Positions 56,055-62,471 of a stretch of 64,000 nucleotides of DNA are shown piece by piece. The notes under the pieces are model-generated. The model saw only the letters and a list, made by a program, of their open reading frames with translations, was not told the origin of the DNA and searched no databases. Numbering within the stretch: position 1 is the first letter of the stretch; each line of letters starts with the position of its first letter. The stretch comes from an archaeon (GTDB lineage: Archaea; Aenigmatarchaeota; Aenigmatarchaeia; Aenigmatarchaeales; JACQIB01): assembly GCA_035291225.1 (NCBI GenBank), contig DATDSO010000010.1:11163-75162 (forward strand), in the 5' to 3' direction. A program made the translations under genes and the position numbers.

Positions 56055-57140
56055 TTAAGCCATGGACTCCAGAACTTCCTTCAAGCCCGCATCAGTCCGG
56101 ATAGCTGTCGGGCACAAGTAAGTTCTTTCTGCTGAAAATTTTCTCTTTTTCAAATTGAAAATAACTTTTTCTATAGGTTGGGAATTTTTCTTGTGGAGCT
56201 TGCAGAGCAAATTCATTTCGTAATAAAACGGCTGTGTGGATTCTTCTGTTAGAGAGCGCAGCAATTTTATTTCTGCTCCGGCTTTTTTGAAATTTCTTTT
56301 TTTGATTTCATCTGAAACAGCAGAGCAAAATTCTTTTTCATTTACTTTTCCCAAGTAAATTGGGCCGAGAATTTCTGTCTGGCTGCCGCAGAAATCGCAG
56401 ATGTTCTCTGAGCCTGTTTTTCTGTTCGCGCATTTTCTGCAGTAGCTTACAAAATTAATTTGCTTCAAAAGCTTTTCAATTTCGCCTGCGTGCGCGATTT
56501 TTCCAAAAATTCTGTAGTAGTGCTTGTGTGAAAAGGAAAGAACAGGAATAAAGGCGCGGTCCCATTTTGCGAAAGTTAGAATTGAAAAAGTTATCAGGCT
56601 GCGCAAACCAAGCTCTTGGTAGAAATCTGTTTTCCGCAAAAGCAGCCCGTATTTTCTCAAGCCGGCAAAAGGCTTTGAGCCGCACAAGGCAGCGGTATCG
56701 GTTGCTGTTGTCCCAACAAAGCCTTTGTGGAAAATTGCGTTCGCTGCCCCATCCACAAATTGCGCTGGCGAGCCAAAAGGATCTAAATCTATGAAATCAA
56801 AAACTTTTCCAGAAAAAAATAATTTATTTGCATCTGACCAATTTGCTTTGCAAACTTTTTGCAGTTTGTTCAGAGAAATATTTTTCTTTATCGCCCGCAC
56901 GGCAATTGGATTGCTGTCATTCAGCAAAACTTCTTTTACTCCGGAAATTTCTTTTGCGTATCTGAGTCCGCGGATTCCGGTTGCTGAAAGCGCGTCGCAT
57001 ACTGAAATTGGTTTTCCGAATTGCTTTTGCCATACAGCGAGCGCGGCAACTGAAATGTCGCGCACAAGCTCGGCATCGGGGTTGAAAAATGTTTTTTCGC
57101 CTGAAAAGATTTCAACTGAGCCTTCAAGGATTTTTTGCAT
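56055..57140 (-). CDS. trm1: tRNA (guanine26-N2)-dimethyltransferase Trm1
   Basis: ..ALSATGIRGLRYAKE.., ..NDSNPIAV.., IDLDPFGSPAQFVD, C-terminal CRKC..CDFCGS. ATG is 25.5 nt from TATA 57162-57169. Confidence 0.85.
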   Translation of the reverse strand: MQKILEGSVEIFSGEKTFFNPDAELVRDISVAALAVWQKQFGKPISVCDALSATGIRGLRYAKEISGVKEVLLNDSNPIAVRAIKKNISLNKLQKVCKANWSDANKLFFSGKVFDFIDLDPFGSPAQFVDGAANAIFHKGFVGTTATDTAALCGSKPFAGLRKYGLLLRKTDFYQELGLRSLITFSILTFAKWDRAFIPVLSFSHKHYYRIFGKIAHAGEIEKLLKQINFVSYCRKCANRKTGSENICDFCGSQTEILGPIYLGKVNEKEFCSAVSDEIKKRNFKKAGAEIKLLRSLTEESTQPFYYEMNLLCKLHKKNSQPIEKVIFNLKKRKFSAERTYLCPTAIRTDAGLKEVLESMA

Positions 57141-57173: not shown

Positions 57174-57211
57174 TCACGAATGATTCGTAAGGCGATTGAC
57201 GAATTTCAGTG
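57174..57211 (-). repeat. Operator-like repeat, copy A (upstream of trm1 TATA)
   Basis: Minus strand: CTGAAATTCGTCAATCGCCTTACGAATCATTCGTG. Ends 5 nt upstream of the trm1 TATA. Confidence 0.7.
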
Positions 57212-57440: not shown

Positions 57441-57501
57441 TTTTGCTTTTTGTCGTAGTTAAGCATATAAACTTTACTCCAAAATAAAAGTGAGAATAAT
57501 T

Positions 57502-58536
57502 ATGCAGCTAAACACAACAGAGCAATTCAAAAAAGTTCTTGCTGAAAAAAGAGAGATTGTCTGGGCTGAGATTCAGAAATTTTTGCCGAGTAAAGAGCCA
57601 AAAGAATTCTACAAAATCGTGCGCGAGTATCCTGAGAGAAAGGGAAAATATTTGCGCCCGAGTTTAGTTTTGCTTGCGTGCGAGGCTTTCGGCGGGGATC
57701 CGGCGAAAGCTGTCAGAACTGCGGCAGCAATGCAGACTTCTGAAGATTGGATTTTGATTCATGATGACTGGATGGACGGTTCGGATATGAGAAGGGAAAA
57801 ACCTTGCCTGCACAAAATTTACGGGGACTACCATGCGATAAATGCTGGCGATGCCTTGCACATGATAATGTGGAAAATGCTTTTGGACAATCATGAAGTT
57901 CTCGGATATGAAAAATCAATGGAAGTTGCGAATGAATTTTACAATATTCTTTTGACAACAGCAGAGGGCCAGTGGCTTGAGGGGGCTTGGATGCAGAGCG
58001 GAAACATTGCGCTGACTGATGAGGATTGGTTCAAGGTTGCTGACGCAAAAGCCGGATACTACACAATAACAGGGCCAATGAGATTGGGGGCAATTGTTGC
58101 GGGAAGAAATAAAGAAACGCTTGATAAACTTTTTGAATTTGGAATTCCATTCGGCCGCGCGTTCCAGTTGCAGGATGATATTTTGAATGTCGCGGGTGAT
58201 GAGAAAAAATACGGGAAGGAAATTGGAGGAGATATTCTGGAGGGCAAGCGCACGCTGATACTCGGGCATTTGATGAGAACTTGCGCGCCGCAAGAAAAAA
58301 AGAAAGTTGAAGAAATTTTTGCAAAGTCGCGGCCGCAGAAAACTGAAGAGGAAAAAAATTATGTTTTAGATTTAATGCGCAAGCATGGAAGCATTGATTA
58401 TGCGCGGGCTGTTGCGAAAAAACTTTCAGGCGAGGCAAAAGAAGTTTTTGAGAAAAATTTTCAGAGCCTGCCAGAAACAGAAGCAAAAAATAATTTGCGC
58501 CTTGCTGTAGATTTTGTTGTGAATAGGGATGTTTAA
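57502..58536 (+). CDS. idsA: Polyprenyl (geranylgeranyl) diphosphate synthase
   Basis: First Asp-rich motif ILIHDDWMDGSDMRR, second FQLQDDILNV. Alternative GTG start 57490. Confidence 0.85.
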   Translation: MQLNTTEQFKKVLAEKREIVWAEIQKFLPSKEPKEFYKIVREYPERKGKYLRPSLVLLACEAFGGDPAKAVRTAAAMQTSEDWILIHDDWMDGSDMRREKPCLHKIYGDYHAINAGDALHMIMWKMLLDNHEVLGYEKSMEVANEFYNILLTTAEGQWLEGAWMQSGNIALTDEDWFKVADAKAGYYTITGPMRLGAIVAGRNKETLDKLFEFGIPFGRAFQLQDDILNVAGDEKKYGKEIGGDILEGKRTLILGHLMRTCAPQEKKKVEEIFAKSRPQKTEEEKNYVLDLMRKHGSIDYARAVAKKLSGEAKEVFEKNFQSLPETEAKNNLRLAVDFVVNRDV

Positions 58537-58540
58537 ATTT

Positions 58541-58575
58541 TCTTCGTCAATCGCCTTGTTCGCAAATTGTCGTGG
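58541..58575 (+). repeat. Operator-like repeat, copy B (upstream of TATA 58581)
   Basis: TCTTCGTCAATCGCCTTGTTCGCAAATTGTCGTGG. Shares the 15-nt exact core TTCGTCAATCGCCTT with copy A. Ends 6 nt upstream of the TATA. Confidence 0.7.
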
Positions 58576-58609
58576 TTAGGTTTATAATTGGGTTTTTCTT
58601 TTCAAGTAA

Positions 58610-59395
58610 ATGGAAAAAGATTTGCGGTCAAGCATTCCAATCGGTGGCGGGGCTCCGCCTGCAGGATTTCCTTACAAAGCGCAAGAGCTGCCGTATGGAG
58701 CTAGAAGGATTGCGCCCGCTCTGCCTGAAAATGTTCAATATGGAGCCTCTGTAGAAAAAAGTGAAAGCGCAAGACTTTTAGTTCTTGATTTGACTGGGGT
58801 TCTTGTTCCCAAAGAAAGTTTGCTCGCGGCGCGGCTTTGCACAGAGCATAGGCCGCATTTGGTTTCTGCTGGAATGGAAATGCTCAGGAAATATGGAGGC
58901 GGCGCCATGACTGCAACTCAACTGATAGTAGGTTGTGGCTATATGCTGAAAGGATTGACGGAAGAGCAGGTAAGAGCGGGCGCGCGGAAAATTGAGCCTG
59001 CCGCAGGGGCGAGAGAATTTGTTTCTGCTGCGCGCGAGAGAGGTTTTATTCCGGCAATTATCACAAGCGACCTACAGGAGGCTGCTGAAAAAGTTGCTGG
59101 CGATTTGGGAATTCCGCAAGAGCTAGCAGTTGGGAATGTTGGAGTTTATAATTCTGGAGTTCATACAGGAGCTTTCAGAACTCCGTATGTCGCTGATGCT
59201 GGAAAAACTGCCACGGCAATTAGATTGAAGGAAAATGTTGGCGTGGCTGCTGTTGTTGCTGTTGGAGATGATTGGACAAATCAAGATTTGTTCGGAGCAT
59301 CGGATTTTTCTGTTGCTTTCAATGCGCCGCCTGGATTGGAGGCACATGCAAGAGTTTATGGCGGGTTTGATGAATTATTGGCTGCGCTTGATTAG
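58610..59395 (+). CDS. HAD-superfamily-like protein (phosphoserine-phosphatase-like fold, degenerate motif I)
   Basis: ..LLVLDLTGVLVP.. (DxT instead of DxDxT), ..AIITSD.., ..VVAVGDDWTNQDLF... ATG is 25.5 nt from TATA 58581-58588. GC-richer than its neighbours. Confidence 0.45.
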   Translation: MEKDLRSSIPIGGGAPPAGFPYKAQELPYGARRIAPALPENVQYGASVEKSESARLLVLDLTGVLVPKESLLAARLCTEHRPHLVSAGMEMLRKYGGGAMTATQLIVGCGYMLKGLTEEQVRAGARKIEPAAGAREFVSAARERGFIPAIITSDLQEAAEKVAGDLGIPQELAVGNVGVYNSGVHTGAFRTPYVADAGKTATAIRLKENVGVAAVVAVGDDWTNQDLFGASDFSVAFNAPPGLEAHARVYGGFDELLAALD

Positions 59396-59424
59396 TTTTT
59401 AAAGTTTTCGTGCGGATTGATTTT

Positions 59425-60213
59425 ATGGATTTGACAATAATCAAAGTCGGCGGCTCGGTTATAACGGATAAAAAAAGTTTAGAGCCGAAAGTCAATGAAA
59501 AAAATCTGGAAATTTTCGCGCGCGATGTTTCGGAAATTTTTAGAAAGAATTCTGCGCGCTTAATTATTTGCCACGGAGCAGGCTCGTATGGGCACCAGAT
59601 TGTTAAGAGAACTGGAATTCACAAGGGAATTGAAACCGCCGAGCAGGTTCATGCATTTGCTGAAACTCAAAAACAAATGAATGAGCTGAATGTTTTGGTT
59701 TGCTCTGCGCTTTTGAAAAATGGAGTGCCGGCAATTCCTACTCAGGTGAGCGCGAATGTTGTTATGGACGCTGGGAGAATTTCTGAGTGGGACACAAAAG
59801 CAATTGAAGGATTTTTGGAAGTGGGAATGGTTCCAGTTGTTTATGGAGTGCCTGCTTTTGACAAAAAACAGAAATGCTCAATTCTAAGCGGGGACCAGAT
59901 TGCGCCCTTTCTCGCGAAAAAATTGGGCGCAAGAAAAATTATTCATGGAACAAATGTGGATGGGATTTTTACTGCAGACCCGAATTTGGATTCGGCCGCG
60001 GAAAGGATTCCGGAAATTAATTCTGAAAATTTAGAGAGTGTGAAAAATTTGCTTGGAGAATCTTCAGCAACAGATGTGACAGGCGGGATGTTTGGAAAGG
60101 TTTCAGAGCTTTTAGATTTGGGAGTTGAGTCGCAGATTGTTAATGCATTTTTGCCTGGGAGGGTTGTTGAAGCGTTTGAAGGGAAGAGTGTTGGGACGAA
60201 AATAGTGATGTGA
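59425..60213 (+). CDS. ipk: Isopentenyl phosphate kinase
   Basis: Amino-acid-kinase fold: LTIIKVGGSVITDK.., ..IICHGAGSYGH.., ..ILSGDQI... ATG is 25.5 nt from TATA 59396-59403. Confidence 0.8.
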   Translation: MDLTIIKVGGSVITDKKSLEPKVNEKNLEIFARDVSEIFRKNSARLIICHGAGSYGHQIVKRTGIHKGIETAEQVHAFAETQKQMNELNVLVCSALLKNGVPAIPTQVSANVVMDAGRISEWDTKAIEGFLEVGMVPVVYGVPAFDKKQKCSILSGDQIAPFLAKKLGARKIIHGTNVDGIFTADPNLDSAAERIPEINSENLESVKNLLGESSATDVTGGMFGKVSELLDLGVESQIVNAFLPGRVVEAFEGKSVGTKIVM

Positions 60214-61029
60214 TTGACTACAATTTTAAAAATCGGAGGATCTGAAGTTACGGATAAGCGGAAGGCTGTTGAGCCAAAAGGAGATTTACATTCTACGGTT
60301 GAAGCTTACTTTAGGCGCGCTGATGTGGAAAGATACGCAAGAGAATTGATGGAAGGCTTAGATGGTGGGAGAGATATCATTCTTATACATGGTGCAGGAG
60401 CTTCTGCTCATTATGAACTTGAAGTAGCATATCCGACTCATAAGTCTCCACAAAGAGTAATAGAAGCCGCATCTTATACTAGCAAATTATTTTGTGAAAC
60501 TTTAGAAGATTGCGGTTTGAAAGTCCGTAGGCATGAGCCCGCGGAGCTTGTAACAAACATGGAAAAAGGGATTGAATGGGCAAAACTTATGCGCGAGTTT
60601 GATAATGATATTGCGGACGGAGTTATTCCTGTCGCTCACGGAACTCTTGTAAGAAGCGGCGTAGGCGGACCATATGATGGCTATGTTGTTTTGTCGGGGG
60701 ATGTTGTTCCTATTCAAGCAGCAGTTCATAAAAAACAAAGAACGCTTTTCTTTACTTCAGACCAGAGAGGAATTTATGACAGAAATCCTTCAGAGCCTGG
60801 AGCAGTGCTTTTGAGAAGAATAACGCCATCGGAAGATGTTGGAAAATATTCTATCCGCGGAAGAGAAGCAGATGTTTCTGGCGGGCCTCTTGGAAAAGCA
60901 AGGTTGCTTCAGGCTGCTGTGCGTGAGCATGGAATAACGTCACATATTTTCAGCGCAATGGAACATGGAAACATAAGAGAAGTCTTGCAGGGAAATTTAG
61001 AAGTTGTTGGAACAACCATATGTCAGTAA
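60214..61029 (+). CDS. Second IPK/FomA-like amino-acid-kinase-family paralogue, unknown substrate
   Basis: TTG start directly after the ipk stop. TILKIGGSEVTDK.., ..ILIHGAGASAH.., ..VLSGDVV... Codon pattern differs from ipk. Confidence 0.6.
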   Translation: MTTILKIGGSEVTDKRKAVEPKGDLHSTVEAYFRRADVERYARELMEGLDGGRDIILIHGAGASAHYELEVAYPTHKSPQRVIEAASYTSKLFCETLEDCGLKVRRHEPAELVTNMEKGIEWAKLMREFDNDIADGVIPVAHGTLVRSGVGGPYDGYVVLSGDVVPIQAAVHKKQRTLFFTSDQRGIYDRNPSEPGAVLLRRITPSEDVGKYSIRGREADVSGGPLGKARLLQAAVREHGITSHIFSAMEHGNIREVLQGNLEVVGTTICQ

Positions 61030-61063
61030 AAAAATATTTAAGTTTCCAAAGTTAGCAATCATA

Positions 61064-62089
61064 ATGCCAGAACTCCTTGATGTTGTAGATGAAAATGACA
61101 ATGTAATCGGTCAGGAAGAGAGAGATGTTTGTCTAGCAAAAAATCTTCTGCACCGCTCGGTCCATGTTTTTGTTTTCAATTCAAAGGGAGAGCTTTTGCT
61201 GCAAAAGCGCTCTATGAAAAAGAAAATTTTTCCCGGCAGGTGGTGCGCGTCTTGCTCTGGCCATGTTTCTGCTGGGCAAACTTATGAAGAGGCGGCTGTG
61301 CGCGAGCTTGAAGAGGAAATTGGAGTTTCTGTTGAGAATTTGAAATTTGTTGCGAAATTTTTTGATTTGAATCCTGTTGATAGCGAGATTGCAAAACTTT
61401 ACACAACTTCGCATGAAGGCCCTTTCAAAATTCAGGAAGAGGAAGTGGATGAGGTAAAATTTTTGCCTATGGAAAAAATAAAAGAGGAAATAAAAAATTC
61501 TCCGGAAAAATATACATCGGATTTTGCGCTGGCGTTGAGTGTATTTTTAAATTCTTCCGCAGCAAAATCATCCATGCCAGAAATGATAATTCTTGTTGAT
61601 GAAAACGATAAAGAAATTGGCGCAGAGGAAAAAGTCCGTGCGCATGAGAATGGAGGAAAACTCCACCGCTCGTTTTCAATTTTTGTTTTCAATTCACGTG
61701 GGGAAATGCTTTTGCAATTGCGCGCAAAGAAAAAATATCATTTTGGCGGGCTTTGGTCAAACACCTGCTGCAGCCATCCGAATGCTGGGGAAAGCTTGGA
61801 GAGTGCTGTGCATAGAAAATTGAAGCAGGAAATGGGGTTTGATGCCGAGCTGAAAGAGGCTTTTAGTTTTATTTACAAAGTTGAGGATAAAAATTCCGGT
61901 TTGACTGAATGGGAGTTTGACCATGTTTTTATTGGAAAGCATGATGGAGAAGTTCCGTTAAATCCTGAAGAGGCGGATGATTTCAAATTTGTTTCTGTGC
62001 CAGAGCTGAAACAAGATGTTGAAAAAAATCCGGAAAAATATACTTTATGGTTTAGAACAGCATTGCCGAAAGTTTTAGAAAAAATTTAA
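61064..62089 (+). CDS. idi: Tandem fusion: Nudix hydrolase domain plus type 1 isopentenyl-diphosphate isomerase
   Basis: N half: ..HRSVHVFVFNSKGELLLQKRS..GHVSAGQTYEEAAVRELEEEIGV (Nudix box). C half: ..HRSFSIFVFNSRGEMLLQLRAKKK..WSNTCCSHP..EWEFDHVF..PEKYTLWF (IDI1 Cys/Glu motifs). Confidence 0.8.
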   Translation: MPELLDVVDENDNVIGQEERDVCLAKNLLHRSVHVFVFNSKGELLLQKRSMKKKIFPGRWCASCSGHVSAGQTYEEAAVRELEEEIGVSVENLKFVAKFFDLNPVDSEIAKLYTTSHEGPFKIQEEEVDEVKFLPMEKIKEEIKNSPEKYTSDFALALSVFLNSSAAKSSMPEMIILVDENDKEIGAEEKVRAHENGGKLHRSFSIFVFNSRGEMLLQLRAKKKYHFGGLWSNTCCSHPNAGESLESAVHRKLKQEMGFDAELKEAFSFIYKVEDKNSGLTEWEFDHVFIGKHDGEVPLNPEEADDFKFVSVPELKQDVEKNPEKYTLWFRTALPKVLEKI

Positions 62090-62090
62090 T

Positions 62091-62471
62091 TTATTTCTTC
62101 TCGGGCTTTTTCTCTTCCATTAAATTCATTTCAACATGTATGCCGCCAATCACGCTTGCGGTTAAATTGTAAATCAGCGCGCCGATAATTCCTGCGAGAA
62201 ATCCAATTATCAAACTGAGAATTGGAAATGCTATTATTGCTATGCCAGAAATTCCTGCGAGAAGTGAGCTTGCTGTGGAAGCTGCGCCGCTTGCTGCTTG
62301 AGAAGCGCCAAGCAACGGAATTGAACTGATTAGCGGCCCGATAATTCCTGAGATTGTCTGCAAAGCAAGAGAGGCTAAAATTCCGTTTATCAAACCAAGG
62401 ATTGCAGCAATTATTGCTGTGATTTTTCCAACCGAGAGCGGGTCCAAGTGCTTGAATTCATATTTTGGCAT
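62091..62471 (-). CDS. Hypothetical membrane protein (Gly/Ala/Ile-rich, 3 TM)
   Basis: Hydrophobic 126-aa ORF. Confidence 0.5.
   Translation of the reverse strand: MPKYEFKHLDPLSVGKITAIIAAILGLINGILASLALQTISGIIGPLISSIPLLGASQAASGAASTASSLLAGISGIAIIAFPILSLIIGFLAGIIGALIYNLTASVIGGIHVEMNLMEEKKPEKK

What the first reader, a model, noticed from the sequence alone, without database searches (positions are those of the whole stretch)
57490..62089. Compact isoprenoid-precursor cluster: GGPP synthase, HAD-like protein, IPK, a second IPK-like kinase, and a Nudix::IDI1 fusion
Seen: five co-oriented genes. They are idsA (both Asp-rich motifs), a HAD-like protein with a degenerate nucleophile motif (LDLTG), canonical IPK, a translationally coupled second amino-acid-kinase paralogue (TTG start directly after the ipk stop), and a Nudix-IDI fusion. 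Established: IPK makes IPP from isopentenyl phosphate in archaeal mevalonate routes, IDI1 interconverts IPP and DMAPP, and in plants Nudix hydrolases dephosphorylate IPP to IP in opposition to IPK. No upstream mevalonate-pathway enzyme is visible in this window, which says nothing about the rest of the genome. Inference: a salvage and homeostasis module that could phosphorylate scavenged prenyl or isopentenyl (mono)phosphates or alcohols (the second kinase) and tune the IP/IPP pool (the Nudix domain). That would be attractive for a symbiont that steals lipid precursors.
Basis: partly seen in the sequence, partly recalled or inferred. Interest (0 to 1): 0.62.

Follow-up and report, generated by a model that had tools for sequence, protein, structure and literature searches.

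The report
Isoprenoid end-step cluster with extra kinase
A tiny-genome groundwater archaeon that lacks every known route to the five-carbon isoprenoid units still keeps the last enzymes for using them in one cluster, together with a rare second kinase, a diphosphatase-like domain fused to the isomerase and an odd phosphatase-like protein, which suggests it lives on precursors taken from a host.

Summary
The five co-oriented genes are real, and independent metagenome contigs carry the same order. They are a short-chain prenyl diphosphate synthase (IdsA), a SerB-fold HAD protein with motif I D-x-T, a canonical isopentenyl phosphate kinase (IPK1), a very divergent IPK paralogue (IPK2) whose TTG start abuts the IPK1 stop, and a YfcD-like Nudix domain fused to a canonical type 1 IDI.

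The 885-kb, about 93% complete, Micrarchaeota-like genome has no HMG-CoA reductase, mevalonate-type GHMP kinase or decarboxylase, AcnX, UbiD, IspH or thiolase. It does have an orphan HMG-CoA synthase, GGGP synthase, CarS and two UbiA genes. Sixteen of 27 IPK-positive relatives also lack HMGR.

IdsA-HAD-IPK-Nudix-IDI is conserved in the family, and IPK-Nudix-IDI recurs in a distant archaeon. IPK2 has only two orthologue clusters among 5.8 billion proteins, each directly downstream of an IPK.

IPK2 keeps every invariant IPK residue and the IPK fold. Its acceptor loop is remodelled and its alkyl pocket is not enlarged.

Best reading: an end-step module working on imported C5 units, with an IPK/Nudix IP-IPP cycle. 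The substrates of IPK2 and the HAD protein remain unresolved. This is a new variant of a known kind, of moderate interest.

The parts
57490..58536 (+). IdsA-like short-chain trans-prenyl diphosphate synthase, probably FPP/GGPP. The likely true start is ATG 57502.
   Evidence: PF00348 193 bits; best NCBIfam models IdsA_Meth 211 bits and GGPP_syn 174 bits, both below their equivalog cut-offs. First motif DDWMD with Trp five residues before it; second motif DDILN, invariant in relatives. A TATA-like element lies about 30 nt upstream.
58610..59395 (+). SerB-fold HAD-IB protein with altered motif I (LVLD-L-T-G-V) and a disordered 51-residue N-terminus
   Evidence: PF00702 35 bits; TIGR00338 54.7 bits, below the 144 cut-off. 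The Asp nucleophile, the motif III Lys and the motif IV Gly-Asp are invariant. The Asp two residues after the nucleophile is Thr or Gln, and the last Asp of motif IV is Asn. The AF2 core is confident, and the best Foldseek hits are phosphoserine phosphatases at TM 0.85. It holds the same position in relatives L025, L026 and L027.
59410..60213 (+). IPK1, canonical isopentenyl phosphate kinase, vertically inherited. The likely start is ATG 59425, giving 262 aa.
   Evidence: NF040647 233.9 bits against a cut-off of 120. PDB 3ll9 IPK E 2.8e-50. It clusters with the IPKs of same-family and same-order genomes.
60214..61029 (+). IPK2, a divergent IPK paralogue with a TTG start that abuts the IPK1 stop
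   Evidence: 25% identical to IPK1. NF040647 77.6 bits, below the cut-off. AF2 pLDDT 92.8, and the top 32 Foldseek PDB hits are all IPKs. All invariant IPK residues are kept, but S47A, G49A/P, M77A, L80T, D129T, V165Q, D166R/K, T199S and I202P (T. acidophilum numbering) are changed in all three orthologues. The only orthologues are P0002 and P0003.
61064..61600 (+). N-terminal Nudix hydrolase-type domain of the fusion protein (YfcD/IDI-like branch). The domain boundary is approximate.
   Evidence: YfcD model 102.6 bits, IDI model 98 bits and Nud_hyd_Meth 78.9 bits, all below their cut-offs. The nearest solved structure is E. coli YfcD, 2fkb. The Nudix box reads G-x5-Q-x7-RELEEEIGV in the sequence, and the IDI catalytic Cys position is Ser. 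It is a separate gene in L026.
61601..62089 (+). C-terminal type 1 isopentenyl-diphosphate isomerase domain
   Evidence: NF002995 148.5 bits against 127, and TIGR02150 110.3 bits against 105.8, for the domain alone. The sequence shows His, His, Cys-Cys-Ser-His-Pro, Glu-Trp-Glu and Trp at the positions of E. coli IDI H25, H32, C67, H69, E114, E116 and W161 (translation).

Best explanation
This is the terminal part of archaeal isoprenoid precursor supply, held as one co-oriented cluster in a Micrarchaeota-like DPANN archaeon that can no longer make C5 units itself.

Proposed flow:
- IPK1 phosphorylates isopentenyl phosphate (IP) to IPP.
- The C-terminal IDI1 domain equilibrates IPP and DMAPP.
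- IdsA builds FPP/GGPP for the GGGPS, UbiA and CarS enzymes encoded elsewhere.

No known route to IP or IPP is encoded, so the substrate of IPK1 is inferred to come from the host or the environment, as IP/DMAP or the alcohols.

The N-terminal Nudix domain fused to IDI is inferred to hydrolyse IPP/DMAPP back to IP/DMAP. With IPK this would give an IP/IPP cycle that sets the diphosphate pool, as described for plant IPK and Nudix enzymes.

IPK2 is inferred to be an active kinase that still takes a small phosphorylated, C5-sized acceptor, with a specificity different from IPK1. It is made in step with IPK1 and may pair with it.

The HAD protein is inferred to handle the monophosphate/alcohol step, as a slow phosphatase or a phosphotransferase.

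Shown: gene identities, fold, residue conservation, gene content of the genome, and synteny. Inferred: every substrate and the direction of flux.
For: - **Gene families:**
- **Genome census:** no HMGR. The only two GHMP kinases are HddA-like; one overlaps a gene with a GmhA-like motif recognised by eye, and the other sits in what looks like a sugar-modification cluster. No AcnX, UbiD, IspH or thiolase.
- **Downstream enzymes present:** GGGPS, CarS and two UbiA genes.
- **Relatives:** 16 of 27 IPK-positive relatives lack HMGR, 7 of them at least 90% complete.
- **Synteny:** IdsA-HAD-IPK-Nudix-IDI is conserved in the family, with Nudix and IDI unfused in L026. IdsA-IPK-(YfcD-like Nudix)-IDI2 occurs in the distant L033.
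- **IPK2 conservation:** all family-invariant residues are kept in three orthologues that are only 55% identical and come from genomes of 41% and 53-54% GC.
- **IPK2 fold:** IPK fold.
- **Coupling:** tight start/stop coupling is conserved, TGA|TTG here and a TTGA overlap in L008.
- **Divergence level:** between this genome and L008, IPK2 (55%) is as conserved as Trm1 (51%) and IdsA (57%).
- **Literature:** plant IPK/Nudix cycle (PMC8248349); IPK-IDI synteny in CPR bacteria that lack the other MVA genes (PMC6107057); a cultured Micrarchaeon that lacks HMGR and has its host's lipids (PMC8975820).
Against: - The genome is about 93% complete, so one missing gene could lie in a gap. An HMG-CoA synthase-like gene is present.
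- A same-genus genome has an HMGR fragment and a same-family genome has an intact HMGR, so loss is recent and might be incomplete.
- No transporter or uptake route for IP or the alcohols was identified.
- The Nudix domain is below the cut-offs of both characterised relatives, and no activity is known for it.
- The closest relatives have the cluster without IPK2, so IPK2 is not needed for the module to exist.
- The HAD protein lacks the usual general acid/base residue. It could also be an unrelated SerB-derived protein that is only inherited next to the cluster.
Confidence: 0.5

Rival explanations
1. Decaying remnant. The cluster is what remains of a mevalonate pathway that is being lost. The cell takes finished lipids from a host, the genes are not yet inactivated, and IPK2 is a drifting duplicate.
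For: HMGR is present in 25 of 61 relatives and only as a 158-aa fragment in the same genus. An orphan HMGS is present with no thiolase or HMGR. IPK2 is absent from the closest relatives.
Against: All five ORFs are intact. IPK2 keeps all 21 family-conserved positions across 55% divergence and a large GC shift. Sixteen HMGR-less relatives keep IPK. GGGPS, CarS and UbiA, which need GGPP, are also retained.
Confidence: 0.15
2. Ordinary pathway end. The organism makes IP itself through genes that lie in assembly gaps or belong to an undescribed route starting from HMG-CoA. The cluster would then be the normal last steps plus housekeeping phosphatases.
For: HMGS is present and looks catalytically intact. 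Completeness is 92.8%. In L033 the same IPK-Nudix-IDI block sits beside HMGS.
Against: Six independent markers are missing together. Motif screens of all six-frame ORFs found no thiolase or enoyl-CoA hydratase signature, although these screens are weak.
Confidence: 0.12
3. IPK2 is a non-catalytic or regulatory partner that forms a heteromer with IPK1, rather than a kinase with its own substrate.
For: Start/stop coupling is conserved in two deeply diverged lineages. In all three genomes that have it, it lies immediately downstream of an IPK. The solved-structure list for IPK1 also includes the alpha and beta subunits of the molybdenum storage protein, at weak scores. That IPKs crystallise as dimers and that this storage protein is a hetero-oligomer of the same kinase family are my own knowledge.
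Against: Every catalytic and nucleotide-site invariant residue is retained, which is not expected of a purely structural subunit.
Confidence: 0.13
4. IPK2 is a long-chain prenyl phosphate kinase (for example geranylgeranyl phosphate to GGPP) that recycles host lipid side chains.
For: Engineered IPKs accept C10-C15 monophosphates once pocket residues are made smaller (PMC8500459). IPK2 has small residues at R1 (Pro/Ala), M77 (Ala) and L80 (Thr).
Against: R2-R4 are Val/Ile, Leu and Val, no smaller than in characterised C5 enzymes. The related clade of ordinary IPKs has similar residues. IdsA would be unnecessary if GGPP were salvaged.
Confidence: 0.07

Closest known systems
Archaeal isopentenyl phosphate kinase (NF040647; PDB 3k4o, 3ll9, 3lkk, 7lnu, 8u0k)
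   Same: IPK1 is a full member. IPK2 has the same fold (Foldseek TM 0.7-0.8) and the same catalytic Lys, His and Asp set, Gly-rich loops and hydrophobic alkyl pocket.
   Different: IPK2 scores below the family cut-off and is 25% identical to IPK1. The loop next to the catalytic His is changed (S47A, G49A/P), as are D129T, L80T, M77A, D166R/K and I202P. It occurs only as a second copy directly after a canonical IPK. I found no description of tandem IPK pairs in the searched literature.
Plant IPK/Nudix (AtNudx1/3) control of the IP:IPP ratio (PMC8248349), and the IPP/DMAPP-preferring Nudix hydrolase of Methanosarcina mazei behind NCBIfam NF041653 (the enzymology is recalled from my own knowledge; the paper is not in the library)
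   Same: A Nudix hydrolase-type domain is paired with IPK and IDI, and a kinase and a diphosphatase would act on the same C5 pair.
   Different: Here the pairing is written into one gene cluster, and the Nudix domain is fused to IDI1. The domain is below the cut-offs of both the YfcD and the M. mazei models. No UbiD-type enzyme is detectable, so supplying DMAP for prenylated FMN is an unlikely purpose here.
IPK-IDI-I synteny in CPR bacteria that lack most mevalonate genes, and trans-prenyl synthase synteny in archaea (Hoshino & Gaucher 2018, PMC6107057)
   Same: The end-step genes IPK, IDI-I and a prenyl synthase are clustered in an ultra-small genome without the upstream pathway.
   Different: This is an archaeal (Micrarchaeota-like) case with a trans-prenyl synthase, a second IPK, a fused Nudix domain and a HAD protein.
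Phosphoserine phosphatase SerB and phosphotransferase ThrH (HAD subfamily IB; PDB 1f5s, 1rku)
   Same: Same core and four-helix cap fold (TM 0.85 to 1f5s). The Asp nucleophile, the motif III Lys and the first Asp of motif IV are kept.
   Different: Motif I is D-x-T/Q-G-V/I instead of D-x-D-x-T, and the last Asp of motif IV is Asn. The score is far below the SerB cut-off. It has a disordered N-terminal extension and sits between IdsA and IPK.
Synthetic isopentenol utilisation / isoprenoid alcohol pathways (alcohol kinase or phosphatase plus IPK; mentioned in PMC8500459, PMC4823809)
   Same: Two consecutive phosphorylations ending with IPK, followed by IDI, would suffice to make IPP and DMAPP from C5 alcohols. 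The cluster offers two kinases and a phosphoryl-transfer fold.
   Different: There is no evidence that either IPK2 or the HAD protein phosphorylates an alcohol. Natural IPKs do this only weakly (PMC4823809).

Membership tests
Isopentenyl phosphate kinase (NF040647 IPPK_Arch) | Whole-protein HMM score above the curated cut-off of 120 bits | tested here: met
   IPK1 scores 233.9 bits.
Isopentenyl phosphate kinase (NF040647 IPPK_Arch), applied to IPK2 | Whole-protein HMM score above the curated cut-off of 120 bits | tested here: not met
   IPK2 scores 77.6 bits. The related long-form IPKs P0023-P0042 score 130-178 bits; only P0044 (96.2 bits) also falls below the cut-off.
Isopentenyl phosphate kinase, applied to IPK2 | Amino-acid-kinase fold with IPK structures as nearest neighbours | tested here: met
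   AF2 pLDDT 92.8. Foldseek ranks 1-32 are all IPKs, E 1e-17 to 7e-13; UMP kinase, G5K and FomA rank lower.
Isopentenyl phosphate kinase, applied to IPK2 | Catalytic and invariant residues (T. acidophilum numbering): K5, G7-G8-S9, K14, H43-G44-x-G46, H50, G128, S142-G143-D144, D197, G200-G201, K205 | tested here: met
   All are present in the window copy, P0002 and P0003. Residue roles are taken from PMC8500459 and PMC4823809.
Isopentenyl phosphate kinase, applied to IPK2 | ATP-dependent phosphorylation of isopentenyl phosphate | not testable with these tools
   Needs an enzyme assay.
Type 1 IPP isomerase (NF002995 / TIGR02150), C-terminal domain | Score above the cut-offs, plus the catalytic Cys and Glu and the metal ligands | tested here: met
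   148.5 bits against 127, and 110.3 bits against 105.8, for residues 61601-62089 alone. The motifs TCCSHP and EWE and both His residues are visible in the translation.
Type 1 IPP isomerase, N-terminal domain | Score above the cut-off and a catalytic Cys | tested here: not met
   98 bits against 127, and 76 bits against 105.8. The Cys67 position is Ser and the His25 position is Cys, by alignment to IDI structures.
Nudix hydrolase, YfcD (NF011922) / M. mazei type (NF041653), N-terminal domain | Nudix box G-x5-E-x7-REUxEExGU, and a score above the equivalog cut-offs | tested here: inconclusive
   The box is complete except that the first Glu is Gln (read from the sequence). YfcD scores 102.6-128 bits against 152, and NF041653 scores 79-130 bits against 300. 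The nearest solved structure is YfcD, 2fkb.
HAD-IB phosphoserine phosphatase (TIGR00338) | Score above 144 bits and motif I D-x-D-x-T | tested here: not met
   54.7 bits. Motif I is D-L-T-G-V, or D-L-Q-G-V in P0297. The fold itself is SerB-like.
Short-chain trans-prenyl diphosphate synthase (PF00348; IdsA/GGPPS equivalogs) | Pfam domain, two Asp-rich motifs, and the equivalog cut-off | tested here: inconclusive
   PF00348 193 bits is met. The first motif is DDWMD. The second motif is DDILN, with Asn in place of the last Asp, conserved. IdsA_Meth at 211 bits against 468 and GGPP_syn at 174 bits against 500 are not met. Product chain length was not tested.

The most novel reading that the evidence does not exclude
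Micrarchaeota-like DPANN archaea that have lost the mevalonate pathway run a dedicated C5 salvage route, a natural counterpart of the engineered isopentenol utilisation pathway. A first phosphoryl transfer onto a host-derived C5 alcohol, or an unusual C5 phosphate, would be carried out by IPK2 or by the D-x-T HAD protein acting as a phosphotransferase. IPK1 would follow. The Nudix::IDI fusion would balance IP, IPP and DMAPP.
Probability: 0.15. Interest if true: 0.8.

Novelty: new variant of a known kind. Interest (0 to 1): 0.52.

Why it matters
How ultra-small DPANN archaea obtain membrane lipids is an open question. The usual answer is that they take whole lipids from the host.

This genome, and at least 16 related ones, keep IPK without HMG-CoA reductase. 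Here IPK is kept together with IDI, a GGPP-type synthase, GGGPS, CarS and UbiA enzymes. That points to uptake of C5 precursors followed by the cell's own lipid assembly.

The cluster offers four cloneable proteins to test this idea. If the Nudix domain is an IPP/DMAPP diphosphatase, this would be an operon-encoded IP/IPP cycle in an archaeon, comparable to the plant system.

IPK2 is a natural, strongly remodelled IPK. IPKs are widely used as biocatalysts for non-natural isoprenoids, so its specificity would be of practical interest.

Tried and rejected
1. **Close relatives of IPK2 in named genomes.** The scan found none. A search of 60 related genomes found only ordinary IPKs.
2. **Recent tandem duplication versus foreign origin of IPK2.**
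   - The fast and quick trees placed IPK2 with a clade of longer IPKs.
   - The quick tree turned out to be suboptimal.
   - The careful tree separates the canonical IPKs from this clade plus IPK2 with 100/100 support.
   - The AU test does not reject IPK2 joining the resident IPK1 clade, p = 0.26.
   - Two insertions shared with the longer clade favour that affinity, but the origin stays unresolved.
3. **Recent horizontal transfer of IPK2 or the HAD gene.** No compositional signal was found. The high GC of the HAD gene comes from its amino-acid content (GC3 0.355). IPK2 has GC3 0.28 here and 0.70 in L008 and L009.
4. **Resemblance of the IPK2 'SDQRG' motif to glutamate 5-kinase.** This was recalled from memory and is not supported: the motif segment finds only IPKs in the PDB.
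5. **The two GHMP kinases as hidden mevalonate kinases.** Rejected: they match HddA best and appear to sit in sugar-nucleotide contexts.
6. **The primary structural papers on IPK** (PMC2879073, PMC2887675, PMC3856688) are not held. Residue roles were taken from PMC8500459 and PMC4823809. The T. acidophilum numbering came from a remembered sequence. It was checked against five residues named in the paper and against the printed 3lkk alignment.
7. **The Methanosarcina Nudix paper** could not be found in the library.
8. **Regex screens for thiolase, ECH and HMGR** are weak. The GHMP pattern missed both known kinases, so the negative results carry little weight.

Full report
**Observation**

Five ORFs lie head to tail on the + strand between 57490 and 62089, downstream of a divergently transcribed trm1 gene (56055-57140, − strand). 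Their family assignments are:

- **IdsA:** prenyl diphosphate synthase, PF00348, 193 bits.
- **HAD protein:** PF00702; the best NCBIfam model is SerB at 54.7 bits, far below its cut-off of 144.
- **IPK1:** canonical isopentenyl phosphate kinase, NF040647, 233.9 bits against a cut-off of 120.
- **IPK2:** a second amino-acid-kinase protein whose only NCBIfam match is the same IPK model, at 77.6 bits.
- **Nudix::IDI:** a protein with two Nudix-fold halves.

Scored alone, the C-terminal half passes both type 1 IDI cut-offs. The N-terminal half falls below the cut-offs of YfcD, IDI and the Methanosarcina Nudix model.

The IPK1 stop TGA is followed directly by the TTG start of IPK2.

- The second Asp-rich motif of IdsA is DDILN, conserved in relatives.
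- The HAD nucleophile Asp is retained. The general acid/base Asp two residues later is what is lost.
- The fusion gene probably starts at ATG 61064, as its 341-343-aa homologues do.
- IdsA and IPK1 probably start at ATG 57502 and ATG 59425.

The stretch is present in at least nine groundwater or soil metagenome runs. Single contigs span all junctions without a difference.

**The organism and its pathway content**

The window lies in an 885-kb, 12-contig genome estimated at 92.8% complete. The nearest named IPK1 relatives, at 59% identity, are an uncultured archaeon and a Candidatus Micrarchaeota MAG.

Absent from the whole genome:

- HMG-CoA reductase.
- Any mevalonate-type GHMP enzyme. The only two GHMP kinases match the heptose kinase HddA best. 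One overlaps a gene with a GmhA-like motif that I recognised by eye. The other precedes what looks like an NAD-dependent epimerase in what looks like a glycosylation cluster.
- AcnX, UbiD, IspH and thiolase.

Present: a haloarchaeal/bacterial-type HMG-CoA synthase-like ORF on another contig, GGGP synthase, CarS, two UbiA genes in the window, and three amino-acid kinases in all, namely IPK1, IPK2 and PyrH.

Among 60 relatives HMGR is patchy, found in 25 of the 61 genomes searched. It is only a 158-aa fragment in the same genus.

Combining, 16 of 27 IPK-positive relatives have no HMGR, and 7 of these are at least 90% complete. Retention of IPK after loss of the upper pathway is therefore a recurrent state in this order, not a gap in one assembly. 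The comparable state in CPR bacteria, IPK syntenic with IDI-I in genomes that lack most MVA genes, is published (PMC6107057). A cultured Micrarchaeon that lacks HMGR has the same lipids as its host (PMC8975820).

**Synteny**

- In one close relative's assembly (IPK1 80% and fusion 79% identical) the order is trm1(−) | IdsA, MazE-VapC, HAD, then on a second contig a 59-aa ORF, IPK, Nudix::IDI.
- In another relative (L026, L027) it is IdsA, HAD, 59-aa ORF, IPK, Nudix, IDI, with the two Nudix-fold genes separate. The HAD gene and the Nudix gene are therefore stable members of the cluster in this family, and the fusion arose from neighbouring genes.
- In a distant archaeon (L033, IPK 37% identical) the order is TrmB-like regulator, IdsA, IPK, YfcD-like Nudix, type 2 IDI, HMGS. 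This links this Nudix branch to IPK and IDI independently of IDI type.
- The trm1 | IdsA-IPK arrangement also occurs in an Aenigmatarchaeota MAG.

**The second kinase**

IPK2 is 25% identical to IPK1. Among 5.8 billion proteins it has only two orthologue clusters, at 55-56% identity, before a drop to about 30% for ordinary IPKs. A full HMMER scan of 1.8 billion representatives found nothing closer. None of the 60 related genomes has it, and the close relatives L023 and L026 have IPK followed directly by the Nudix gene.

Both orthologues lie immediately downstream of an IPK:

- L008: trm1(−) | IdsA, IPK, IPK2 with a TTGA overlap, and IDI1 nearby.
- L009: IPK, IPK2, a weak CYTH-like protein, IDI2.

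L008 and L009 come from 53-54% GC genomes. Their IPK2 GC3 is 0.70, against 0.28 here, so there has been no recent transfer. Between this genome and L008, IPK2 (55%) is as conserved as Trm1 (51%) and IdsA (57%), while the IPK1 genes are only 39% identical and belong to different canonical subclades.

IPK1 groups with the IPKs of the same family and order, so it is the resident gene. IPK2 sits on a long stem outside the canonical clade, with a group of longer IPKs. Nine of the ten of these that I scored pass the family cut-off, and the group shares two insertions with IPK2. An AU test does not exclude an old duplication of the resident gene, p = 0.26.

The AF2 model is confident at pLDDT 92.8, and its 32 best PDB matches are all IPKs.

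All family-invariant residues, including the catalytic His and the three Lys, are kept in all three orthologues. The consistent changes are S47A, G49A/P next to the catalytic His, M77A, L80T, D129T, V165Q, D166R/K, T199S and I202P. Several of these positions lie within 5 Å of the substrates, or in the ATP region, in the T. acidophilum enzyme (PMC4823809).

The four pocket residues that limit chain length (PMC8500459) are Pro/Ala, Val/Ile, Leu and Val, which is not an enlarged pocket.

I conclude that IPK2 is most likely an active kinase for a small phosphorylated acceptor with altered specificity. Its coupling to IPK1 suggests that the two act together. I cannot assign its substrate.

**The Nudix domain**

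- Its nearest solved structure is E. coli YfcD, followed by the IDIs.
- It keeps the hydrolase-type Nudix box (RELEEEIGV), which is degenerate in true IDIs.
- It lacks the IDI catalytic Cys.
- From my own knowledge, the Methanosarcina mazei enzyme behind NF041653 prefers IPP and DMAPP, and was proposed to supply DMAP for prenylated FMN. I could not retrieve that paper.
- No UbiD-family enzyme is detectable here, so that purpose is unlikely in this genome.
- Control of the IP/IPP ratio, as in plants (PMC8248349), is the more economical reading.

**The HAD protein**

- It has only family-level homologues, then SerB at 30%.
- Residues 1-51 are predicted to be disordered. The rest is a confident SerB-like core plus cap.
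- The Asp nucleophile, the motif III Lys and the first Asp of motif IV are invariant. The Asp two residues after the nucleophile is Thr or Gln, and the last motif IV Asp is Asn.
- From general knowledge of the HAD superfamily, loss of that Asp slows hydrolysis of the aspartyl phosphate, as in P-type ATPases. This would suit a phosphotransferase or a slow, regulated phosphatase. That is inference only.

**Verdict**

The salvage-and-homeostasis reading is partly supported by genome content and by recurrent synteny, but not by any direct evidence on substrates.

The core arrangement (IdsA, IPK, IDI without the upstream pathway) is of a known kind. I found no description of the tandem IPK pair, the Nudix::IDI fusion or the D-x-T HAD partner in the literature I searched.

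Earlier notes from this scan report IPK-associated Nudix genes in several CPR bacteria and a HAD-Nudix fusion in an Aenigmarchaeote mevalonate operon. These are unchecked leads that agree with a general link between IPK and Nudix.

Noticed in passing
window 57189-57200 (+) and 58546-58557 (-): Two exact copies of the 12-mer AAGGCGATTGAC. Each lies about 50-60 nt upstream of a start codon (trm1 and the HAD gene), in the same orientation relative to its gene and just upstream of a TATA-like element. About 0.34 matches are expected by chance, and 5 of 100 shuffles reached two. It is a candidate shared operator.
   Followed up: partly
own genome G000:C4:588966-590495 (+), outside the window: An orphan HMG-CoA synthase-like ORF of the haloarchaeal/bacterial type (307 bits, below the equivalog cut-off). 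The Glu, Cys and His motif positions look intact by eye. The genome shows no thiolase or HMG-CoA reductase.
   Followed up: partly
L033:938-7091: A distant uncultured archaeon carries a TrmB-like regulator, IdsA, IPK, a YfcD-like Nudix, a type 2 IDI and HMGS in one co-oriented run. This is an independent instance of IPK-Nudix-IDI linkage.
   Followed up: partly
L009:1221-2210: In one IPK2-bearing relative a 329-aa protein with a weak CYTH (triphosphate tunnel) match sits between IPK2 and a type 2 IDI. The scores, 21.9 bits on Pfam and 37.9 bits on TIGR00318, are both below their cut-offs.
   Followed up: no
L023:81-260, L026:4093-4272, L027:1571-1750: A 59-aa ORF with no family match is called between the HAD gene and IPK in two relatives and just upstream of IPK in a third. 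I did not compare the three sequences. The ORF is missing in the window, where only 14-29 nt separate the two genes.
   Followed up: no
L025:7293-7971: A MazE/PIN (VapC-like) toxin-antitoxin pair is inserted between IdsA and the HAD gene in a close relative.
   Followed up: no
proteins P0201, P0206, P0220, P0251, P0256: Type 1 IDI occurs fused to many partners in metagenomes: prenyl synthase, a GHMP kinase in an archaeon, squalene/phytoene synthase, and an APH-type phosphotransferase in a Patescibacteria MAG.
   Followed up: no
window 62091-62471 (-): A 126-aa membrane protein with a DUF3566 match is conserved at 88-94% identity directly downstream of the fusion gene in relatives L023 and L024. 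A 126-aa gene is called at the same place in L026.
   Followed up: no
own genome G000:C4:336370-337988 and C4:137973-139971: Two HddA-like GHMP sugar kinases. One overlaps a gene with a GmhA-like motif, and the other precedes what looks like an NAD-dependent epimerase (both neighbours judged by eye). This suggests heptose or other activated-sugar synthesis for surface glycans in this small genome.
   Followed up: partly
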